From: a virus | Taxonomy: Duplodnaviria > Caudoviricetes | Reading direction: 5' to 3' (one strand) | DNA length: 64,000 bases | Virus record (IMG/VR): IMGVR_UViG_3300028591_000175 | Coordinates: 13,232-77,231 of that record | Shown here: piece by piece, positions 8,278 to 19,921 of the stretch | How positions within the stretch are numbered: position 1 is the first letter of the stretch | Layout of the letters: each line of letters opens with the position of its first letter | The notes under the pieces: model-generated | Told to the model about the DNA's origin: nothing | The model's input: only the letters and a program-made list of their open reading frames with translations | The model's database searches: none | Program-made: the position numbers and the translations under genes

Positions 8278-8306
8278 ATTATATATTATAAAAAATAAAA
8301 AGTCAA
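8278..8306 (-). promoter_or_regulatory. SigA-type promoter TTGACT-N17-TATAAT for the Sak4/SSB genes
   Basis: Near-consensus hexamers with 17-nt spacing; the -35 lies in one arm of an inverted repeat (AAAAAGTCAATA/TATTGACTTTTT). Confidence 0.65.
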
Positions 8307-8329
8307 TACCTTTATTGACTTTTTCTAAA

Positions 8330-9177
8330 TTATTTTATTTCACTTAATCTACGTCTAACCTCATTAAATAAAAATGCTAGAAAGTTGCTACTTACACCTA
8401 GTTTTTCTCTATAATATCCTGGGTCAGTATCTGGAATATTTATATTAAATCCATAAGCACCAAACCCTACGACACCAACTAATAAATCTCGGCTAGTAAT
8501 ACCTCTTTGATGAGTACCAAAATCATTAGGATTGTATGCAAATAATACGTCATATTGTGAATATTCTTCTTCTATTTGAATATTCATAAATAGACTACCT
8601 CCATTAAGTAATGCCGCGACAATAATACTAGCGTAGCCGTCAATTTTATTTTTTATTTCTTCGTCTATTTCCACCATTGTTATCCTCCTTTTTTAATTTG
8701 GTTACTCTACCACCAACGATATAATTTCCTGTTTCGGTACGGGGTACATAAATACTCCCTGACTTTTTTAGGTCACGTTTCTTTCTTAAAAATCCTTGCA
8801 ATTTCATATACATTTTATAGGCTTGCGCTGGTGTTGCGTCAAAAAATTCAATTTTATGAAGCATATCAACAATTCGTCTATCATATTGTGAAATTAGTTC
8901 GTTGTTATTCTTTAGTTTTTCTTTTTCTGAATATACAACACCAGGAGTTTTATTTATCCTGTTCACTTGTATTATCCTCCTCTAATTTTAATGGCTCGTC
9001 TGGATACAAATTATTATATCTATTAACTTGCTCCTTAATTGCTTCGCCCATTTGTTCCCAAAATTTTTTATCTTCTCTGTTTCTTCTGATTTGACATATT
9101 AACATATGTACTAATACTACAATTTGTAATACTAATAAAGCAATTAACAAAAATTTTATAGTTAAATCAACCATCAT
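8330..9177 (-). CDS. Three small hypothetical proteins (8330-8677, 8646-8966, 8950-9177; the last has an N-terminal TM helix)
   Basis: Overlapping, translationally coupled ORFs with GGAG/GAGG RBSs. Confidence 0.55.
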
Positions 9178-9202
9178 TTTACCTCTTTTCTATATAAGGA
9201 GT

Positions 9203-9535
9203 ATGGCGGTTTTATCGTTTATTCCGCCTGCAACCCCGCCACCTGAAGCGACGTAGAGGTCACGCTGTGCGCCTCCGTATGGGACCGTTATCACGACGCC
9301 AGCCAACAAAGATAGTGCCTGTGTGGAAGAACACTTATCTGCCCATCTTCAATATGGAGCTACCATATTCCTCGTGCGTCACAGGGGCTATTCCCTAGAA
9401 CAGAAATGTGACGTCTCGCTACTAGCCACGCTAAACTCCCTTTTGTTAACGTCACTAGGGACCAGCTGACGTGCATAGATAAATATGCAATCTAAGCAAT
9501 ACACTTGCCCCTCTACTTTTACTTAGGCGGAATAG
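9203..9535 (-). ncRNA. Candidate large structured ncRNA (about 330 nt), family unknown
   Basis: ORF-free and GC-elevated; closed by TATTCCGCCT/AGGCGGAATA with many nested helices. Confidence 0.6.
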
Positions 9536-9573
9536 TGCGAATCTTCTCCAAGGGTTTATGGTTTTCCTTCCAA

Positions 9574-9660
9574 TGGCGCCGTGGTGAGGTGTCGAACCCC
9601 CACGCTTTCACGTGTACGTGCTTTCAAGGCACGGTGTGACTAGCCGGTCACAACCACGGC
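9574..9660 (-). tRNA. tRNA-Ser(UGA) with non-canonical 8/4-type fold
   Basis: Anticodon arm CGTGC-CTTGAAA-GCACG, long variable arm, G discriminator, encoded CCA. Confidence 0.8.
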
Positions 9661-9763
9661 ATAAATGAGGCGAGTTGAGGGTCTATACCCCGAGATTACC
9701 TACCCTCTTTCATTCATAATATTATATCCTAGAATTCAATTATGAATATATCGGGATACTCGC

Positions 9764-9839
9764 TGGTGGGTCGTGTTGGACTCGAACCAACTACCCTTAC
9801 ATTAAAAGTGTAATGCTCTACCTGATGAGCTAACGACCC
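9764..9839 (-). tRNA. tRNA-Lys(UUU)
   Basis: Cloverleaf with TTACA-CTTTTAA-TGTAA, GTTCGAGTC T-loop and CCA. Confidence 0.93.
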
Positions 9840-9914
9840 ATATACAATAGAGAACAGTCAAACTCTATCACCCATACCAGTATCTATGTGGATACATAAA
9901 TCGACTGTTTTTAA

Positions 9915-10001
9915 TGGTGGGCGGAGAGGGTATCGAACCCACTCGGGCCGTTAGACACGAGATTTACAGTCTCGCCCCGCTCCTTACGGGTCTACCCGCC
10001 C
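9915..10001 (-). tRNA. tRNA-Tyr(GUA)
   Basis: CGAGA-CTGTAAA-TCTCG, variable arm, CCA. Confidence 0.9.
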
Positions 10002-10006
10002 ATATA

Positions 10007-10521
10007 TTAACAAAGACCAAACTCTTTGCGTTTTTTATTTATAACTTCAACTACGTCTCTAACAGTTTCTTCTTCATATTGTTCTCTCCAGATTTTTTCA
10101 CGTTTCCAGAAATGCTCTGCGTTTATAGTTTCACAAACACCGATACAATATATAGCTGTTTTCATACTCCAGCAACCGTCACAAGCTCGTTGATTACACC
10201 AATCTACAAATTCTTTATATTTCATTTTTTTATTTCCTCTAACTTTTTTATTAACTCGTCTATATCGTCGTCAGTGATACAAATTTCACATAGTCTATAT
10301 TCTTTACCTCTAATTGCAAACCATATCATTTTAAGTCTCTTTTTGAATTTATCCCACATTTTGTCTTGCTCACTATAAAATTTTGAAGTTGTAATTGTAA
10401 TATAATAGTCATTAGGTAGTCCTACCTCTTTATATTTTGTTACATAAATACCTTCATTACAACCACAGTCGCAATTAACTATGACTAATTTTTCTTTCTT
10501 TGTTTCTCCTGATACTACCAT
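10007..10521 (-). CDS. Two small Cys-containing hypothetical proteins (10007-10225, 10222-10521)
   Basis: RBS GGAGG and an ATGA-type overlap; inserted in the tRNA cluster. Confidence 0.55.
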
Positions 10522-10541
10522 AATAACCTCCTAAAAATTAT

Positions 10542-10631
10542 TGGCGGTGACGGTAGGATTTGAACCTACGGTACGTTTCCGTACGCCGCGTTAGCAGTGC
10601 GGTGCATTAAACCAAGCTCTGCCACGTCACC
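10542..10631 (-). tRNA. tRNA-Ser(GCU)
   Basis: CCGCA-CTGCTAA-CGCGG, long variable arm, GCCA end. Confidence 0.92.
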
Positions 10632-10636
10632 ATATT

Positions 10637-10711
10637 TGGTAGCGCTATCCAGAGTCGAACTGGACACCCCAGGATGAAAACCTGGTGACTTAACCGACTG
10701 TCCCTAGCGCC
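10637..10711 (-). tRNA. tRNA-Glu(UUC)
   Basis: CCAGG-TTTTCAT-CCTGG, T-loop GTTCGAC, CCA; G rather than U at position 8. Confidence 0.88.
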
Positions 10712-10733
10712 ATATGAAGGGGCTAACCGACCC

Positions 10734-11067
10734 CTATTTTCTTTTATGGAATTTAGCCCAATCATTTATTGCGTCTTCTAAACTCCAATCGTGTAACGTT
10801 CTCCAACCGTCTTACTCCATTTGCTAAATCTTTTTGGTCTTGTTCCCAACGGTCAATCGCGTCTTGTTTTGTTTCTAAAAATTTGAATTCCCATAAATCC
10901 CAACTGTCTAATCCTAAAGATTTATAGTGTCTACCGTTACCAACTTCAATATTAGGGTTTTTTAGTTTCCTTCTGATTTTACGGTTAGCATATTGCTTTC
11001 CTTTCTTCATTGACCTACCCCATAAAGCCATTCTTGAAATTGGGAAGTGTTTATAACTTCTACTCAT
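10734..11067 (-). CDS. Basic hypothetical protein (MSRSYKH...ANRKIRR type), probably completed by a +1 shift at CGG 10809-10807
   Basis: The 0-frame ends at 10762; the +1 frame gives GWRTLHDWSLEDAINDWAKFHKRK* ending at 10734. Confidence 0.6.
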
Positions 11068-11093
11068 TTTATCGCCTCCTTAGGCACGAAGCC

Positions 11094-11120
11094 CTAGAAG
11101 ACGCTACCTATTTTATTCAT
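11094..11120 (-). promoter_or_regulatory. Leader mini-ORF MNKIGSVF* with an SD-sequestering hairpin
   Basis: Strong RBS GGAGGAG; its stop lies in the 5' arm of a hairpin that pairs with the next gene's AGGAGG. Confidence 0.5.
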
Positions 11121-11131
11121 AATAACTCCTC

Positions 11132-11422
11132 CTAACCTATAGCATATCCAACACTACTAACAGCTTTTACGAAATCCGGTTGTTCACATTTCATATATCC
11201 ACTTGTTGGTTTGTGATATTTATACCAAGTTGGGTGAAAGTCATATTGATATAATCCTTCTGGTATATTTTCAATAACTGCATAATCATAACAAGTTTCC
11301 CATATATCACAAGCGTTATACAATACTGCGTTTTCAGCTTTTTCAAATGTATCAAAATAACCTACACATCTTGTATCGTGAATTTCACCTTTTTTAGTTT
11401 CGATTGTTGTTACGAAATACAT
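11132..11422 (-). CDS. Hypothetical protein (start MYFV at 11422)
   Basis: RBS AAGGAG; the upstream extension in the ORF track overlaps a structured RNA. Confidence 0.6.
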   Translation of the reverse strand: MYFVTTIETKKGEIHDTRCVGYFDTFEKAENAVLYNACDIWETCYDYAVIENIPEGLYQYDFHPTWYKYHKPTSGYMKCEQPDFVKAVSSVGYAIG

Positions 11423-11446
11423 AGTTATTCTCCTTTTTAATATAAT

Positions 11447-11642
11447 GGCTGGGGTGAAACAACTAACCCTCCCCAGCAGTGATTGTCGGTATTTACCCAC
11501 TGCTCGTGTATGCTCTAGGTAAAGTTTGTTACCACATATCAGGGCTTTCAATAATCTCGTGCATACAGATTACGGCTTATCGTTACTCTAGTTGATTTGT
11601 TGTGACTGACCCTCACAACTAGGTGACAGCGCCACGGCTATC
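11447..11642 (-). ncRNA. Candidate structured ncRNA (about 195 nt) directly 3' of tRNA-Thr
   Basis: Helices CTAGTTG/CAACTAG, GTTGTGA/TCACAAC, TAATCT/AGATTA, GCAGTG/CACTGC and GCTGGGG/CCCCAGC. Confidence 0.45.
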
Positions 11643-11718
<76 letters not shown>

Positions 11719-11726
11719 ATATACAA

Positions 11727-11823
11727 TGTTATATTCAATCTTTCCTATAGCGGATTTTCACCACTCCCCCACGTCAATTAAGATAGTAGTCGCAGAATCG
11801 AACTGCTCGAGTTGAATATAACA
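11727..11823 (-). ncRNA. Circularly permuted tRNA-like (YrlA/Y-RNA-like) element
   Basis: A 12-bp terminal stem encloses a T-arm (GCAG-TTCGATT-CTGC) followed by a D-like hairpin. Confidence 0.45.
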
Positions 11824-11872
11824 AAGTTTGGTGATTAACACCAAATAAAAATGTTCATACGCCCTTTCGGGC

Positions 11873-11946
11873 TGGCTCGGGAGCCTAGACTCGAACTAGG
11901 AATATATCGGTCAAAGCGCTATGTGATACCATTTCACCACTCCCGA
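11873..11946 (-). tRNA. tRNA-Gln(UUG)
   Basis: U1-A72 pair, anticodon loop CTTTGAC, one mismatch in the anticodon stem, GCCA end. Confidence 0.88.
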
Positions 11947-11949
11947 ATG

Positions 11950-12414
11950 TTATTTGTATGTTACATTATTTAATACATAAGACATTGTTGAATTTGAAAC
12001 ATTAAAACGTTTCGCAAGTGAAGTCAAACCATATTCTTTATCCCTAGGTTTATACATATCTCTACACCATTGTACCTGCTCTTTTGTGAGTTTAGCGTTA
12101 TAAGATTGTTCACCACGACCTTGATGTGACCAACGCTCTGCTACCCATTCAAGATTACTTGCTTCATTATTCAAAGTATTACCGTCAATATGTCTAACCC
12201 AAGTGTAACCCATAGGATTTGGTACAAAAGCCATAGCAACTAAACGAGCTACTATATAATATTTTGCTTTTCCTCTAGCTCCTAAAGATAAATTCACCAT
12301 TAGACAATTACTTTTATCAAGTTTTTGTTTTAATATTTTTCCAGTTTGTTTATTTCTAACGTCTCCATATTTTGAAACTTCATAATTTGAACAAACGCTA
12401 CATTCTTTCCACAT
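11950..12414 (-). CDS. NUMOD4-HNH homing endonuclease inside the tRNA cluster
   Basis: WK...YEVSKYGDVRN (NUMOD4) and RLVAMAFVPNP...VRHIDGNTLNNEASNLEW (HNH_3), with a C-terminal HTH. Confidence 0.85.
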   Translation of the reverse strand: MWKECSVCSNYEVSKYGDVRNKQTGKILKQKLDKSNCLMVNLSLGARGKAKYYIVARLVAMAFVPNPMGYTWVRHIDGNTLNNEASNLEWVAERWSHQGRGEQSYNAKLTKEQVQWCRDMYKPRDKEYGLTSLAKRFNVSNSTMSYVLNNVTYK

Positions 12415-12439
12415 TCTAACTACCTACCTACTAATTTTT

Positions 12440-12515
12440 TGGTTGCGGGAACAGGACTCGAACCTGTGACCTCAAGGTTATGGGCCTTGCGAGCTGCCAA
12501 CTGCTCTATCCCGCG
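12440..12515 (-). tRNA. Initiator tRNA-fMet(CAU)
   Basis: C1:A72 mismatch, CGCGGG acceptor, anticodon arm CAAGG-CCCATAA-CCTTG, CCA. Confidence 0.88.
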
Positions 12516-12535
12516 ATATATTATGAGTGGGGCAA

Positions 12536-12618
12536 AGCCGAGGGAGGACTTGAACCTCATCTACCCGCGCGGACTTTCACCCGTGACGTTACCCACTATA
12601 CGTCTTTTAACCTCAGCT
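12536..12618 (-). ncRNA. tRNA-like RNA lacking an anticodon loop
   Basis: Acceptor AGCTGAGG/CCTCGGCT, D-like arm and T-arm GAGG-TTCAAGT-CCTC; the anticodon arm is capped by GAAA; no adjacent CCA. Confidence 0.55.
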
Positions 12619-12798
12619 ATGTTAATTGAATATTGATTTTATTTTATATAATTTTTCTGGGTGTGCTTCATAATGATTTTTTTCGCAATATTTTTTATAA
12701 CATTTTTCGTCGCAAAAATGTTGATTATACTCATTTACACTTCCCCATAAAATTATTTTTTTACAATTTTCACAAGTATAGGCTAACATATTTTTCTC

Positions 12799-15744: not shown

Positions 15745-16110
15745 CTATTCTTCCTTTCTTTTTCGTAATTTTTCTAATACGTAATCAATCCCTCCGAAGT
15801 TATTATCGTCTATATATTCATTACAAAAAATCTTTCGTGGGTTATTACCAAACCAATCCTTCATATGAGGTAGATTATCGTTCACTGCGTTGAATTTAAT
15901 TCCGTGGTCTTCACACCACATAAGCGCACCTTCTAATGCAATTCCTTCACGCATAGTCACAAGCACTAAATAAGCACCTTTTCTTTGTTCTTCAAGTATG
16001 TAATCTATAACCTCTTGGATAGGTTCTCCTATATTAGGATAAGGGGACACTATTGTAGCCAGTGTCCCGTCAAAATCAACACCTATTATTCTATTTCTTT
16101 TCTTCTTCAT
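15745..16110 (-). CDS. HAD-superfamily phosphatase
   Basis: IGVDFDGT, TMRE and RKI...YIDD motifs. Confidence 0.85.
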   Translation of the reverse strand: MKKKRNRIIGVDFDGTLATIVSPYPNIGEPIQEVIDYILEEQRKGAYLVLVTMREGIALEGALMWCEDHGIKFNAVNDNLPHMKDWFGNNPRKIFCNEYIDDNNFGGIDYVLEKLRKRKEE

Positions 16111-16459
16111 TAACAGGTTCCTCCGCTTTCTTTTTTCTGGTACGTTTCGGTTTTCTTTTCATAAATAACATTTCTTTGTTATCAAAATAAACTTTATCAT
16201 TACCATTATCTTTTTCGTCTCCTTCAAATTGAGGACGCATAAAAGATATATAAGCGGTTCCGTATTTTTGCACACATTCTCTTGTACGAGCTAATTTTTG
16301 ACAATCATTTTTGAAACCTAAATTTATATAATCTAAATCTTCTTTTTTATCGTCAGGTAGATTTTCTAAATCAACTTTTACTTCAAATGCGTCAGCCACT
16401 TCAAACTCGTGCTTTTTTGTTCTGTGTAAATAAACTCGTAGTATCATTCTATTCTCCAC
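16091..16459 (-). CDS. Hypothetical protein
   Basis: Coupled overlaps with both neighbours. Confidence 0.5.
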   Translation of the reverse strand: MENRMILRVYLHRTKKHEFEVADAFEVKVDLENLPDDKKEDLDYINLGFKNDCQKLARTRECVQKYGTAYISFMRPQFEGDEKDNGNDKVYFDNKEMLFMKRKPKRTRKKKAEEPVNEEEKK

Positions 16460-17561
16460 CTTTCAATAAATATTTATTAGACACAACTTTGAATGAATAG
16501 GTCATATCTTCTGTTCTAAATACGACACCTTCTGCGATTTGATTTGGTGAAGCGTCTTCAAAATATTTTCTGTATTTTATATCGTCAACATATTTCAATA
16601 ATTTTTCCACAGTATTATCCACTGTTTCCTCAGGGTCAAATTTGAATTTATCTTCTGCGTCAATTAGAGGTACGTGCTTTAGACCGAATTCTTCACATAA
16701 TTTTAACATATATAATAAGTCACATTTTACATAGCTTCCATTTTTACCAGTTTTACTTACAAAAGCATTGAATATAAACCATTCTTTTTCTTTAAGTCCT
16801 AATTTATTTCCTTGAATACCTGGTCCACATAATTCTCCTTGGAATGCTACATATATACCATTTATAGCTTTATAATTTTCAAATTTTTCTTTAGCTTCGT
16901 TTTCAAAATATTTATTAACTGTAGTAGTATACATATTTTCGTCTTTATAAAATTGATTTCTACCACCTATTAAAAATGCGTCGTCAAATAATCCAACTGT
17001 GCAAGAAGTACCGTCAAGTTTTATTGAGCTATACCAATCATCTTGTTCACTATTCATATATGTTGGTAAAACGTCTGCTGCACAAACTTGAATTCTCTCC
17101 TCATCAGTTTTTGGTATATACCATTCGTGATGAATTATATCGCCTAATGCTCCGTTTGAAACCGGTGGTTCATATTTTTCTATTTTTAATAATTCAGTTA
17201 AATCTTCACCTTCTGGATATTCAGTTCTAAAATCTATTTCACCATTTATCTGTACCATTAAATCTTTTATTTGCTCATAAGGTATTACTAATCCTTGAGA
17301 AATTTGATTTCTAAATTTATGTGTAGAAATCTTATACTTATTTAATTTTTGTGACCAAGAAGAACCCTTTAAGAATTCAAACGCTGGAATATCGGGAAGT
17401 AAGCTATCAATTTCAAAATAAATAACTTTGTCTCCTACTCGATATTCTCCTTTTCTGGCCACACAATCCCAGTTTAAGATTTGAACAATCTCTATTCTAT
17501 CTGCACCCTCTATCGGCTTTATCGCCTTGACAGTCTGCACACTTGCTAACTTTCTGCTCAT
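16449..17561 (-). CDS. ATP-dependent RNA ligase (DRB0094/Rnl2-like family)
   Basis: MSRKLASVQ...IEGADRIE N-domain, KLDGTS, FQGELCGPGIQGN, EGVVF and SFKVVSNKYL. Confidence 0.9.
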   Translation of the reverse strand: MSRKLASVQTVKAIKPIEGADRIEIVQILNWDCVARKGEYRVGDKVIYFEIDSLLPDIPAFEFLKGSSWSQKLNKYKISTHKFRNQISQGLVIPYEQIKDLMVQINGEIDFRTEYPEGEDLTELLKIEKYEPPVSNGALGDIIHHEWYIPKTDEERIQVCAADVLPTYMNSEQDDWYSSIKLDGTSCTVGLFDDAFLIGGRNQFYKDENMYTTTVNKYFENEAKEKFENYKAINGIYVAFQGELCGPGIQGNKLGLKEKEWFIFNAFVSKTGKNGSYVKCDLLYMLKLCEEFGLKHVPLIDAEDKFKFDPEETVDNTVEKLLKYVDDIKYRKYFEDASPNQIAEGVVFRTEDMTYSFKVVSNKYLLKGGE

Positions 17562-18948: not shown

Positions 18949-19403
18949 TTATTTTTTAAGTTCTTTTAATTCTGTCTCAAGTGTTTCAATCTTTTTATAC
19001 AATCTATCGACTAAATCATTAAGCATTTTGTTATCACTTTCTTGTGATTTGATTTGTCTTTCTTGCATTTGAATTTTAACTTGTGATGGTACGTCTTCCT
19101 TATATTTATAAAACGCATAAGATAGAGCAATACCAATAATTACACCAATCATAAATACTGGAAACATAGCCATAATTATTCCTCCCCGTTATCTAAAATA
19201 TCTGTCAACGCGTTAATTTCTTCTGGAATTCTTGCAATAGCCACTAATGCGTCACCTGTTTCAGCACTACCTAATGTGTCACGAAGATTTGCAGTTAATG
19301 TTTTCAATGTATCGTGTATTTCAGCAAGTGTTGAATTTAACGTCTTCATTTCTAGTAACTTTTTTTCTTCAATATGTAACAATTTGCTTTCAAACGGTGT
19401 CAC
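18949..19403 (-). CDS. Two small hypothetical proteins (18949-19173 TM plus coiled coil; 19176-19403)
   Basis: RBSs and tight packing. Confidence 0.5.
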
Positions 19404-19921
19404 TTTAGATACCCTCCTTTCAATAAATAATCTAGTGTCACGGGTTTATAATTATATAACATACACCCTACGTTATATCTATTTATATCAGGTCGGTTAT
19501 CTGGTTTGTGTGTATGACCGTGTAAGTGAATACTTCCGTGTTCTTTACAATTCCAGCTTTCTATTGGATAATGTGATAAAATTATAAATTTACCGTTTAT
19601 CTTTAGCTCTTTATAGTGAACCATCTCCTCGAAGTATCTAGGATTAAATGCTTGCTTGTTTATATATGTATCGTGATTTCCAATAATTAAATGTTTTTTT
19701 CCGTTTAATCGACTTAATACATCTGTTATTAAAAATGGTGTCATATATGAATTTTGAAACGCAAAATCTCCTAAAATATATACTTCGTCGTTTGGTTTAA
19801 CTACCTCATTCCAATTTTTAATAAGACCTATAGTCATATCTTCTACTGTCTTCCAAGGTCTATCTTCATATTCAATAATATTTTTATGACCTAAATGTAG
19901 GTCGCTTGTAAAATAAATCAT
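19400..19921 (-). CDS. Calcineurin-like metallophosphoesterase
   Basis: SDLHLGH, LGD, GNHD, HYP and HGHTH motifs. Confidence 0.9.
   Translation of the reverse strand: MIYFTSDLHLGHKNIIEYEDRPWKTVEDMTIGLIKNWNEVVKPNDEVYILGDFAFQNSYMTPFLITDVLSRLNGKKHLIIGNHDTYINKQAFNPRYFEEMVHYKELKINGKFIILSHYPIESWNCKEHGSIHLHGHTHKPDNRPDINRYNVGCMLYNYKPVTLDYLLKGGYLK

What the first reader, a model, noticed from the sequence alone, without database searches (positions are those of the whole stretch)
9203..9535. Large ornate ncRNA candidate at the 3' end of the tRNA cluster
Seen on the - strand: outer helix TATTCCGCCT/AGGCGGAATA, second long-range helix GTAGAGG/CCTCTAC, and inner helices TGCATA/TATGCA, ACGTCA/TGACGT, CGTCACA/TGTGACG, AGGG/CCCT, AATATGG/CCATATT and AGATA/TATCT. 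A 3' CCGCC can pair with GGCGG as an alternative or pseudoknot. There is no ORF and GC is well above background. Established: GOLLD and ROOL RNAs occur beside tRNAs in Firmicute phages. I could not match this to them, nor to tmRNA, RNase P or an intron, so it may be a new class.
Basis: partly seen in the sequence, partly recalled or inferred. Interest (0 to 1): 0.7.

Follow-up and report, generated by a model that had tools for sequence, protein, structure and literature searches.

The report
New structured phage RNA beside tRNAs
A gut and rumen phage carries, at the end of its tRNA gene array, a roughly 350-base RNA with a conserved knotted fold that accumulates in gut RNA samples, matches no catalogued RNA family, and has no known function.

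Summary
The candidate is real. On the minus strand, about 9198-9573, lies a structured non-coding RNA. Its conserved core is 9198-9473. A variable 5' extension runs to the end of tRNA-Ser at 9574.

Twenty-three distinct homologues, all from one clade of gut/rumen phage contigs, keep ten helices. 97-99% of cells are paired, and 14 of 28 plus 19 of 28 pairs show compensatory changes. Two pseudoknots covary.

In four metatranscriptome runs from four studies, contigs of 321-405 nt cover just this RNA at depth 17-322. The neighbouring coding DNA sits at about 3.

Rfam 15 gives no match, even at E<=10. ARAGORN finds no tmRNA.

Its two long-range helices do not: the same bases covary in local helices instead.

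tRNAs sit inside the variable 5' region in some relatives, as reported for GOLLD.

Verdict: a new, narrowly distributed family of the GOLLD/ROOL kind, meaning large phage RNAs near tRNA islands. Its function is unknown. My best guess is a stable, trans-acting folded RNA.

The parts
9552..9573 (-). Leader directly after the CCA end of tRNA-Ser(UGA): UUGGAAGGAAAACCAUAAACCC. A recognisable form is kept in most homologues. It is absent in L011 and L055.
   Evidence: Sequence; upstream flanks of 22 homologues. The RNA contig of run X10 reaches 9558.
9501..9538 (-). Optional 5' hairpin (GCACU...AGUGU). It is absent in L009, L011, L043, L048 and L055. In L012, L014, L019 and L045 a tRNA-Ser separates it from the core.
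   Evidence: My own RNAalifold run on 12 distinct 5' pieces. The basal stem has two forms, GCACU/AGUGU and CUGCU/AGCRG. tRNA positions.
9472..9489 (-). Small hairpin TGCATA/TATGCA, specific to the window's own subgroup.
   Evidence: Sequence. Relatives outside the subgroup lack it, so no comparative test is possible.
9450..9471 (-). H1: CGUCA/UGACG with an invariant loop containing CCCU.
   Evidence: pair 5-22 AU 14 / UA 7; pair 3-24 CG 20 / UA 1.
9431..9449 (-). J1/2: UUAACAAAAGGGAGUUUAG, mostly invariant. AGGG(A) can pair with the H1 loop (U)CCCU to form pseudoknot PKa. The pyrimidine 3' tail is a rival partner.
   Evidence: four of the five PKa pairs never vary, and the fifth departs only by unpaired or gapped cells (UA in 15 of 21 rows), so there is no covariation. 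The tail pairing shows one-sided changes only.
9373..9430 (-). H2-H3 domain: H2 CGU/ACG encloses H3 (CGUCAC/GUGACG), which carries H3b (GGG/CCU) with a 7-nt loop AAUAGCC. GGCUA just after H2 pairs with the loop's UAGCC (pseudoknot PKc).
   Evidence: H3 has 4 of 6 pairs with double changes, H3b 2 of 3. PKc pair 61-103 is UA 12, CG 8, UG 1.
9351..9369 (-). H4: AAUAUGG/CCAUAUU with a near-invariant loop UAGCU.
   Evidence: 6 of 7 pairs with double changes, 100% of cells paired.
9342..9346 (-). 5' strand of pseudoknot PKb (AUGGG).
   Evidence: It pairs with the H6 loop, with seven sequence forms across the family.
9310..9340 (-). H5: variable hairpin (AGAUA.../...UAUCU in the window).
   Evidence: single-sequence folds of 22 distinct middle segments. 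Most give a hairpin at this place with unrelated stem sequences.
9264..9303 (-). H6: GCUG-G-CGUC-GU / AC-GGCG-C-CAGC. Its loop carries CCCAU (9279-9283), the 3' strand of PKb.
   Evidence: 7 of 9 outer pairs with double changes. PKb.
9230..9263 (-). Ha (GUGACCU/GGGUUGC) enclosing the variable hairpin H7 (CGUCG/UGGCG). H7 is 15 to about 70 nt long in relatives.
   Evidence: Ha pair 61-145 is GC 15, CG 7, UA 1. All 5 H7 pairs show double changes.
9205..9228 (-). H8: GGCGG/CCGCC with a conserved A-rich loop of 12-14 nt. No U-tract follows.
   Evidence: pair 153-180 is GC 13, CG 5, AU 3, GU 1, UA 1. No terminator is called here.
9197..9204 (-). Pyrimidine-rich 3' tail (AUACUCCU). The deepest RNA contig ends at 9197.
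   Evidence: X6 contig 9197-9546, depth 322. Contig ends only suggest the RNA's 3' end; they do not prove it.
9574..9660 (-). tRNA-Ser(UGA), immediately upstream on the same strand. It is the last of 8 tRNAs in the array.
   Evidence: ARAGORN. The X7 RNA contig 9244-9648 joins it to the RNA.

Best explanation
This is a gene for a stable, highly structured non-coding RNA of about 350-375 nt, belonging to a family not yet in Rfam.

Shown:
- It lies on the same strand as the phage's tRNA array, and an RNA-library contig joins it to tRNA-Ser.
- It has a conserved core of about 276 nt: H1, the H2/H3/H3b domain, H4, H5, H6, Ha/H7 and H8. Two covarying pseudoknots tie the core together, PKb (J4/5 with the H6 loop) and PKc (GGCUA with the H3b loop).
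- It has a variable 5' extension that can hold a hairpin and, in some relatives, whole tRNAs.
- RNA-library contigs that cover it are far deeper than those over the neighbouring genes.

Inferred:
- It is transcribed with the tRNA array and freed at its 5' end by the processing that makes the tRNA's CCA end.
- A third, invariant H-type pseudoknot (PKa) with an A-rich connecting strand forms at the 5' end.
- The compact knotted fold protects the RNA from exonucleases, so it accumulates.

Best guess at function: it acts in trans as a folded RNA particle in the phage's tRNA-centred takeover of the host, in the manner proposed for GOLLD and ROOL. It would bind or sequester a host or phage factor tied to tRNA or translation, rather than regulate the downstream gene in cis.
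For: Homologues. blastn finds 20 of 24 related loci at 68-99% identity. The covariance models add L025, a reduced form in L022, and a fragment at the edge of L016.

Covariation, independent alignment. MAFFT plus RNAalifold gives 56 pairs, 28 of them with double changes.

Covariation, model-fitted alignments. In the 5' half, 98.8% of cells are paired and 14 of 28 pairs show double changes. For four of five measures 0 of 500 shuffles reach the observed value, and slid controls give 21-52% paired. In the 3' half, 97.2% are paired and 19 of 28 pairs show double changes, with 0 of 500 shuffles.

Pseudoknots. PKc pair is UA 12, CG 8, UG 1. PKb takes the forms AUGGG/CCCAU, ACGGG/CCCGU, AAGGG/CCCUU, UGGAG/CUCCA, AAGAGG/CCUCUU, CGAGAG/CUCUCG and AAAGGG/CCCUUU.

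Strand. Many invariant G-U pairs, for example UG 23/23 and GU 23/23 in Ha, would be A-C mismatches on the other strand.

Expression. In 4 of 4 RNA runs laid (4 studies), contigs span 9197-9546 (depth 322), 9222-9558 (20), 9223-9522 (17) and 9244-9648 (25). Contigs over the flanking ORFs have depth 2.4-3.

Not gene-specific. The downstream gene differs among homologues. In L048 the RNA lies about 190 nt from the nearest tRNA, and in L056 about 760 nt.

Reduced variant. L022 keeps H1+J, H6, Ha/H7 and H8. A G-run able to pair with the H6 loop has moved into the Ha/H7 junction.

Context. The phage also encodes an RNA ligase (E 2.6e-70), a PNK/HAD-like protein and a phosphoesterase 6-10 kb away.
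Against: No function was tested, and the trans-acting reading is an analogy.

Folding energy alone is not significant (z -2.43 and -1.34).

All RNA evidence comes from assembled contigs. These cannot show strand, exact ends or true abundance, and one depth figure per contig is a poor measure (tool warnings).

The counts use alignments fitted to my structure, which leans them towards it.

The 23 sequences come from one phage clade, so many 'cells' share inheritance. PKa shows no covariation.

For PKb, matched partners score only modestly above mismatched ones (5.26 against 4.55), because most members share GGG/CCC.

No promoter-like site was called before the RNA in L048, so an independent transcription unit is not shown.

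The family was found only with motif scans and models built on this clade. Distant relatives could have been missed.
Confidence: 0.6

Rival explanations
1. It is a cis-acting boundary or processing element of the tRNA operon. On this reading it is a compact fold that marks where the tRNA transcript is cut from the downstream mRNA, or that blocks exonucleases. The stable RNA seen would then be a by-product rather than an effector.
For: It always lies between the tRNA region and protein genes on the same strand. RNA contigs stop a few bases after H8, and the downstream ORF is covered far less deeply. A 5' H-type pseudoknot would suit exonuclease resistance (inference).
Against: Ten helices, two covarying pseudoknots and many invariant unpaired bases are far more than a block or cut site needs. 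The downstream gene varies. L056 carries the RNA after an ORF, 760 nt from any tRNA.
Confidence: 0.15
2. It is a ribozyme. It would either cleave itself, cutting free of the operon transcript, or act on tRNA precursors.
For: Its size, multiple pseudoknots and invariant joining strands are typical of catalytic RNAs. It appears to have discrete ends without a terminator. It is linked to tRNA.
Against: No Rfam ribozyme family matches it, at gathering threshold or at E<=10: not RNase P, group I/II, glmS, twister, hatchet, pistol or HDV-like. Contig ends are not mapped RNA ends. Nothing catalytic was tested.
Confidence: 0.12
3. It is a riboswitch-like leader that senses a ligand or a tRNA and controls read-through into the downstream early genes.
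For: It sits upstream of genes on the same strand. Alternative pairings exist: the 5' CCGCC against H8, and the 3' tail against J1/2 GGGAGU.
Against: There is no terminator or anti-terminator pair, and H8 has no U-tract. The downstream genes are unrelated to each other. The alternative pairings show no compensatory change. It accumulates as a separate RNA. T-box and other riboswitch models do not match.
Confidence: 0.06
4. It is a very divergent or reduced member of an already described class that the Rfam models fail to recognise. Candidates are GOLLD, ROOL, or an unnamed candidate in a published virome catalogue.
For: Its habitat, phage origin, tRNA neighbourhood and embedded tRNAs match what is written about GOLLD and ROOL (passages of 10.1101/2024.12.08.627333 and PMC5737381). 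A catalogue of 8,495 IMG/VR candidates exists, but I could not see its tables (PMC10690425).
Against: There is no hit to any of the 4,227 models, even at E<=10, in 10 loci. It is about 350 nt, against the 581 nt average given for ROOL and the more than 800 nt given for many GOLLD RNAs.
Confidence: 0.07

Closest known systems
GOLLD RNA (Rfam RF01998; accession recalled)
   Same: It is encoded in phages and prophages, often near tRNA islands. It has a conserved 3' part and a variable 5' part, and tRNAs are sometimes present inside the RNA. Its function is unknown (passages of 10.1101/2024.12.08.627333). Here the RNA ends a tRNA array, the 5' extension is variable, and a tRNA-Ser sits inside it in L012, L014, L019 and L045.
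   Different: No match to the Rfam model even at E<=10. The RNA is about 350 nt rather than over 800 nt. No sequence or helix correspondence was found. Oligomerisation is untested.
ROOL RNA (Rfam RF03087; accession recalled)
   Same: It was first found in cow rumen data and occurs in phages and prophages near tRNAs. It has multiple pseudoknots and no known protein partner, and is very abundant in one Ligilactobacillus strain (passages of PMC5737381 and 10.1101/2024.12.08.627333). The present RNA is found in bovine-gut RNA runs at high contig depth.
   Different: No match to the Rfam model. The RNA is about 350 nt against a 581 nt average, and its architecture is simpler. It is confined to one phage clade, whereas ROOL spans three phyla.
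Stable small RNAs of the phage T4 tRNA gene cluster (species 1 and 2; recalled from memory, no call)
   Same: They are non-tRNA stable RNAs co-transcribed with a phage tRNA cluster and released by tRNA-processing enzymes. Their function is still unknown.
   Different: As I recall, the T4 RNAs are much smaller, and no such pseudoknotted core has been described for them. No sequence comparison was made here.
Unnamed candidate structured RNAs from IMG/VR (Fremin et al. 2023, PMC10690425)
   Same: Same data source (IMG/VR), same kind of evidence (covariation), and some candidates lie at or near tRNAs (passages read).
   Different: The main text names no motif of this description.

Membership tests
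GOLLD RNA | Match to the curated covariance model | tested here: not met
   cmscan against Rfam 15 gives no hit on the RNA at gathering threshold or at E<=10 (window 8900-12700; 9 homologous loci).
GOLLD RNA | Very large size (many members over 800 nt) | tested here: not met
   The core is 276 nt. The expressed unit is about 350-375 nt, from RNA contigs of 321-405 nt.
GOLLD RNA | Phage or prophage location near tRNAs, with tRNA sometimes inside the variable 5' part | tested here: met
   This is a resemblance in context only.
ROOL RNA | Match to the curated covariance model | tested here: not met
   No hit at E<=10.
ROOL RNA | [quoted passage not shown] | tested here: not met
   About 350 nt, with ten helices and at most two multi-helix junctions. 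There are two covarying pseudoknots plus one invariant candidate.
GOLLD/ROOL | Homo-oligomeric cage formation | not testable with these tools
   This needs cryo-EM, light scattering or native gels. The H4 loop holds the palindrome AGCU, but two members (L043, L025) break it.
tmRNA | tRNA-like domain plus tag reading frame | tested here: not met
   ARAGORN reports 8 tRNAs and no tmRNA in the window. No Rfam tmRNA hit.
RNase P RNA | Match to the bacterial or archaeal RNase P models (conserved P4 core) | tested here: not met
   No hit at E<=10.
Group I / group II intron | Match to the intron models; interrupted host gene with exons that join | tested here: not met
   No Rfam hit. The flanks differ among homologues and the neighbouring tRNAs are intact. 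RNA contigs show no joint that skips the element (table 5).
T-box / other riboswitch leaders | Match to the model; terminator or sequestering stem ahead of a fixed gene class | tested here: not met
   No hit. No terminator-like site at the 3' end. Downstream genes vary.

The most novel reading that the evidence does not exclude
This would be a third, much smaller class of phage 'tRNA-island' ornate RNA, alongside GOLLD and ROOL. It would be a knotted RNA of about 350 nt that can carry tRNAs in its own 5' arm. It would act as an RNA-only particle or decoy in the conflict over tRNAs between phage and host, for example against anticodon nucleases. That fits the RNA ligase and kinase/phosphatase-like repair genes in the same genome. 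The minimal core of about 135 nt kept in L022 would make it a tractable model for what such RNAs do.
Probability: 0.3. Interest if true: 0.8.

Novelty: new variant of a known kind. Interest (0 to 1): 0.62.

Why it matters
Large, intricately folded RNAs without proteins are rare in bacteria and phages, and the known ones have often turned out to be ribozymes or unusual assemblies. GOLLD and ROOL share this RNA's habitat and tRNA neighbourhood. They have recently been shown to form RNA-only cages, yet their function is still unknown.

A third, unrelated and much smaller RNA shares three traits with them: it sits by tRNA arrays, it can have tRNAs embedded in it, and it is abundant in gut RNA samples. 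That suggests a recurring need of tRNA-carrying phages that is met by RNA. This RNA offers a shorter and more tractable molecule, with a natural reduced variant, for finding out what that need is.

It is also a practical caution. Single-sequence folding suggested long-range closing helices that the comparative data do not support.

Tried and rejected
Known families. Rfam gave nothing on the RNA at gathering threshold or at E<=10. The only weak hits nearby were tRNA-related or chance matches, for example FMN at E=3 at 11729-11826.

Cultured phages. blastn of the RNA against 50,697 phage records gave no match. tblastn with the neighbouring Sak4-like protein found only distant relatives (under 32% identity) in phages of Bacillota hosts. 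There is therefore no cultured relative and only a weak host hint.

Wider distribution.
- Two motif scans of IMG/VR returned the same 21 stretches.
- The metagenome scan returned 16 stretches, from the same clade.
- The scan of one genome per prokaryote species returned a single Thalassotalea hit. It lacks the downstream motifs and matches neither model, so it is chance.
- A looser 3'-domain pattern gave 36 stretches. I searched 21 new loci with model R2; two others, L067 and L072, are contigs already held. None matched (best E=0.47).
- These scans need exact motif matches, so distant relatives may exist unseen.

Other checks.
- Only one copy is present in the phage's own genome.
- H2a, the 3-bp mini-hairpin GCU/AGC that I first modelled, was replaced by PKc. 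Its variable base covaries with the H3b loop, not with its supposed partner.
- Leader AAACCC pairing with J1/2 was considered and dropped, because L011 and L055 lack the leader.
- 3' tail pairing with GGGAGU is possible, but the changes are one-sided only.
- A promoter I saw by eye before the RNA in L048 was not called by the scan.
- Thirteen runs on record as RNA hold a small share (0.10-0.14) of the 2.4-kb query. Only four were laid, so the other nine are no evidence.
- A full-length covariance model could not be built because of the time limit, so the two halves were modelled separately and long-range pairs between them were checked by script.

Literature. Two full-text searches found no description of this RNA. 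I read only passages of PMC5737381, 10.1101/2024.12.08.627333 and PMC10690425.

Full report
**Where and what.** The window is part of a 77-kb viral record that CheckV rates 99% complete. On the minus strand an array of eight tRNA genes (12515 down to 9574) is followed by a stretch of about 375 bases. This stretch has no ORF over 48 aa and a GC of 0.46-0.53, against about 0.30 in the surrounding genes. After it come small ORFs and recombination genes: a Sak4-like ATPase and an SSB-like protein.

**Is it a known RNA?** No.
- Rfam 15 (4,227 models) finds only tRNAs in the window at gathering threshold.
- It finds nothing on this stretch at E<=10 in a 3.8-kb search.
- It finds nothing on the homologous stretch of nine related loci.
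- ARAGORN reports no tmRNA.
- blastn against 50,697 phage records finds nothing.

**Relatives.** The neighbouring Sak4-like protein brought in 24 related IMG/VR loci. blastn with the RNA hits 20 of them at 68-99% identity. Motif scans added one more IMG/VR contig and 16 metagenome contigs. Contig names and the run search point to bovine and human gut. After removing duplicates there are 22 distinct core sequences. Two covariance models then added three more items:
- a divergent full-length member in L025 (75.7 and 86.6 bits);
- a reduced form in L022 (27.9 and 34.4 bits);
- a cut fragment at the edge of L016.

Nothing outside this clade was found. One species-genome hit is chance. Of 21 new loci from a looser 3' pattern, none matched. 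The phage genome holds one copy.

**Structure.** An alignment made without any structure (MAFFT), folded by RNAalifold, already gives 56 pairs, 28 of them with compensatory changes. On the model-fitted alignments:
- The 5' half has 98.8% of cells paired and 14 of 28 pairs with changes on both sides.
- The 3' half has 97.2% paired and 19 of 28.
- In both, 0 of 500 shuffles reach the observed pairing, double-change counts or covariation score. Sliding the partners drops pairing to 21-55%.
- These alignments lean towards the model, and the sequences are related. The signal is nevertheless large and agrees.

The conserved core is window 9198-9473. Its helices are H1, H2 enclosing H3 and H3b, H4, a variable hairpin H5, H6, Ha enclosing a variable H7, and H8 with a conserved A-rich loop. 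H5 keeps its position but not its sequence.

Three tertiary pairings are proposed.
- *PKb* joins the strand after H4 to the H6 loop. It takes seven sequence forms that stay complementary. The base next to the GGG/CCC block is U-A, C-G or A-U in every one of the 20 members that have that block (read).
- *PKc* joins GGCUA after H2 to the H3b loop. Its variable pair is UA 12, CG 8, UG 1. Close relatives differ by the double change (L011 against L055; L012 against L018).
- *PKa* joins the H1 loop CCCU to AGGG in the invariant A-rich joining strand. It is possible but never varies, so it is untested. The pyrimidine 3' tail is a rival partner, with one-sided changes only.

Many invariant G-U pairs fix the strand as the tRNA strand.

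Six local helices are right (H1, H3, H3b, H4, the base of H5, and H8). The two long-range helices that close the drawing are not conserved.
- The 5' piece that carries TATTCCGCCT and GTAGAGG is an optional hairpin of its own.
- It is absent from five members. In L012, L014, L019 and L045 a tRNA-Ser lies between it and the core, and in L019 also an ORF and tRNA-Cys.
- Where H8 changes (GGCGG to GCCGG or GACGG), the partner that changes is the local CCGCC, never the 5' piece.
- The base that distinguishes CCTCTAC from CGTTTAC covaries with Ha's other strand.

Folding energy is only weakly better than shuffles (z -2.43; -1.34 for the core).

**Expression.** The run search listed 24 runs. Thirteen are on record as RNA, and those hold only 0.10-0.14 of the sampled words of a 2.4-kb query. 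I laid four of them, from four studies, on 8300-10700. In each run one contig covers essentially the RNA alone:

| Run | Span | Contig length | Depth | Note |
|---|---|---|---|---|
| X6 | 9197-9546 | 351 nt | 322 | |
| X10 | 9222-9558 | 337 nt | 20 | |
| X9 | 9223-9522 | 321 nt | 17 | adapter sequence at its end |
| X7 | 9244-9648 | 405 nt | 25 | runs into tRNA-Ser |

Contigs over the flanking ORFs have depth 2.4-3, and no joints were seen. DNA carry-over would cover the flanks evenly, so this is RNA. Contigs cannot give the strand, the true ends or a fair abundance, so the ends (about 9197, and 9546-9573) are suggestions. The X7 contig shows that RNA and tRNA-Ser occur on one molecule.

**How it probably works.**

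Shown: it is a conserved, knotted fold, and it accumulates relative to its neighbours. It is not tied to a particular downstream gene, which is a small membrane protein, a ThyX-like protein, or others. It is also not tied to a tRNA directly upstream (L048, L056).

Inferred: it is transcribed with the tRNA array and released by tRNA 3'-end processing. It resists exonucleases because of its pseudoknots, and it acts in trans.

Context: the phage also carries an RNA ligase (E 2.6e-70), a PNK/HAD-like protein and a phosphoesterase. That is the kit phages use to mend tRNAs cut by host nucleases (established knowledge of T4 Rnl1/Pnkp; recalled). A role in the tRNA conflict is therefore a reasonable guess, but only a guess.

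Rivals, none excluded: a cis-acting boundary element, a ribozyme, a riboswitch-like leader, and a divergent member of a known class.

**The reduced form in L022.** It keeps H1 with its joining strand, H6, Ha/H7 and H8, and lacks H2-H5. A G-run complementary to the H6 loop now sits in the Ha/H7 junction. If it is functional, it defines a core of about 135 nt. This reading is by eye, and the model scores are low.

**Comparison and novelty.** In context the RNA resembles GOLLD and ROOL. Those are phage or prophage RNAs near tRNA islands, from rumen and Lactobacillales settings, abundant, with pseudoknots, and with tRNAs sometimes inside GOLLD (passages). This RNA fails their membership tests on model match and size.

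Two full-text searches found no description of it. A catalogue of 8,495 unnamed IMG/VR candidates exists, but I could not open its tables. I rate it a new family, a new variant of the known kind 'large structured phage RNA beside tRNAs'. It is narrowly distributed and its function is unknown.

Noticed in passing
window 9661-9763 (-): The roughly 100-nt spacer between tRNA-Lys and tRNA-Ser looks structured: a closing stem GCGAG/CUCGC around two hairpins. It recurs in L010 and L044, where it directly precedes the RNA's leader with no tRNA-Ser in between. It may be a separate conserved element or a decayed tRNA.
   Followed up: partly
window 16449-17561 (-), 15745-16110 (-), 19400-19921 (-): RNA ligase (phrog_968, E 2.6e-70), a PNK/HAD-like protein and a phosphoesterase lie near each other. 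This looks like a tRNA-repair kit in a phage that also carries eight tRNAs.
   Followed up: partly
window 11950-12414 (-): An HNH/NUMOD4 homing-type endonuclease gene sits inside the tRNA array, between tRNA-Met and tRNA-Gln. The order and number of tRNAs differ widely among close relatives, which suggests frequent rearrangement of the array.
   Followed up: no
L022 399-510 (+): Just upstream of the reduced RNA variant lies a sequence of about 110 nt with tRNA-like acceptor, D-arm and T-arm words and a long middle insert. ARAGORN calls no tRNA in this locus.
   Followed up: no
L007 3014-3101, L010 964-1051, L048 2879-2969, L055 446-534: ARAGORN reads the long-arm tRNA-Ser as anticodon ACT in these loci, but GCT in the window and most relatives. 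This is either a register artefact or real anticodon-loop variation.
   Followed up: no
L019 1887-2160 (+): In this relative a short ORF-like stretch and a tRNA-Cys are inserted, together with tRNA-Ser, between the RNA's 5' hairpin and its core.
   Followed up: no
window 9310-9340 (-), H5 loop: The loop of the otherwise variable hairpin H5 keeps a UCCACAYAGG-like word in the window-like half of the family. No partner for it was found.
   Followed up: no
window 8950-9177 (-): The 75-aa ORF just downstream encodes a small protein with one hydrophobic stretch. A similar ORF follows the RNA in many relatives but not all. It has no family match.
   Followed up: partly
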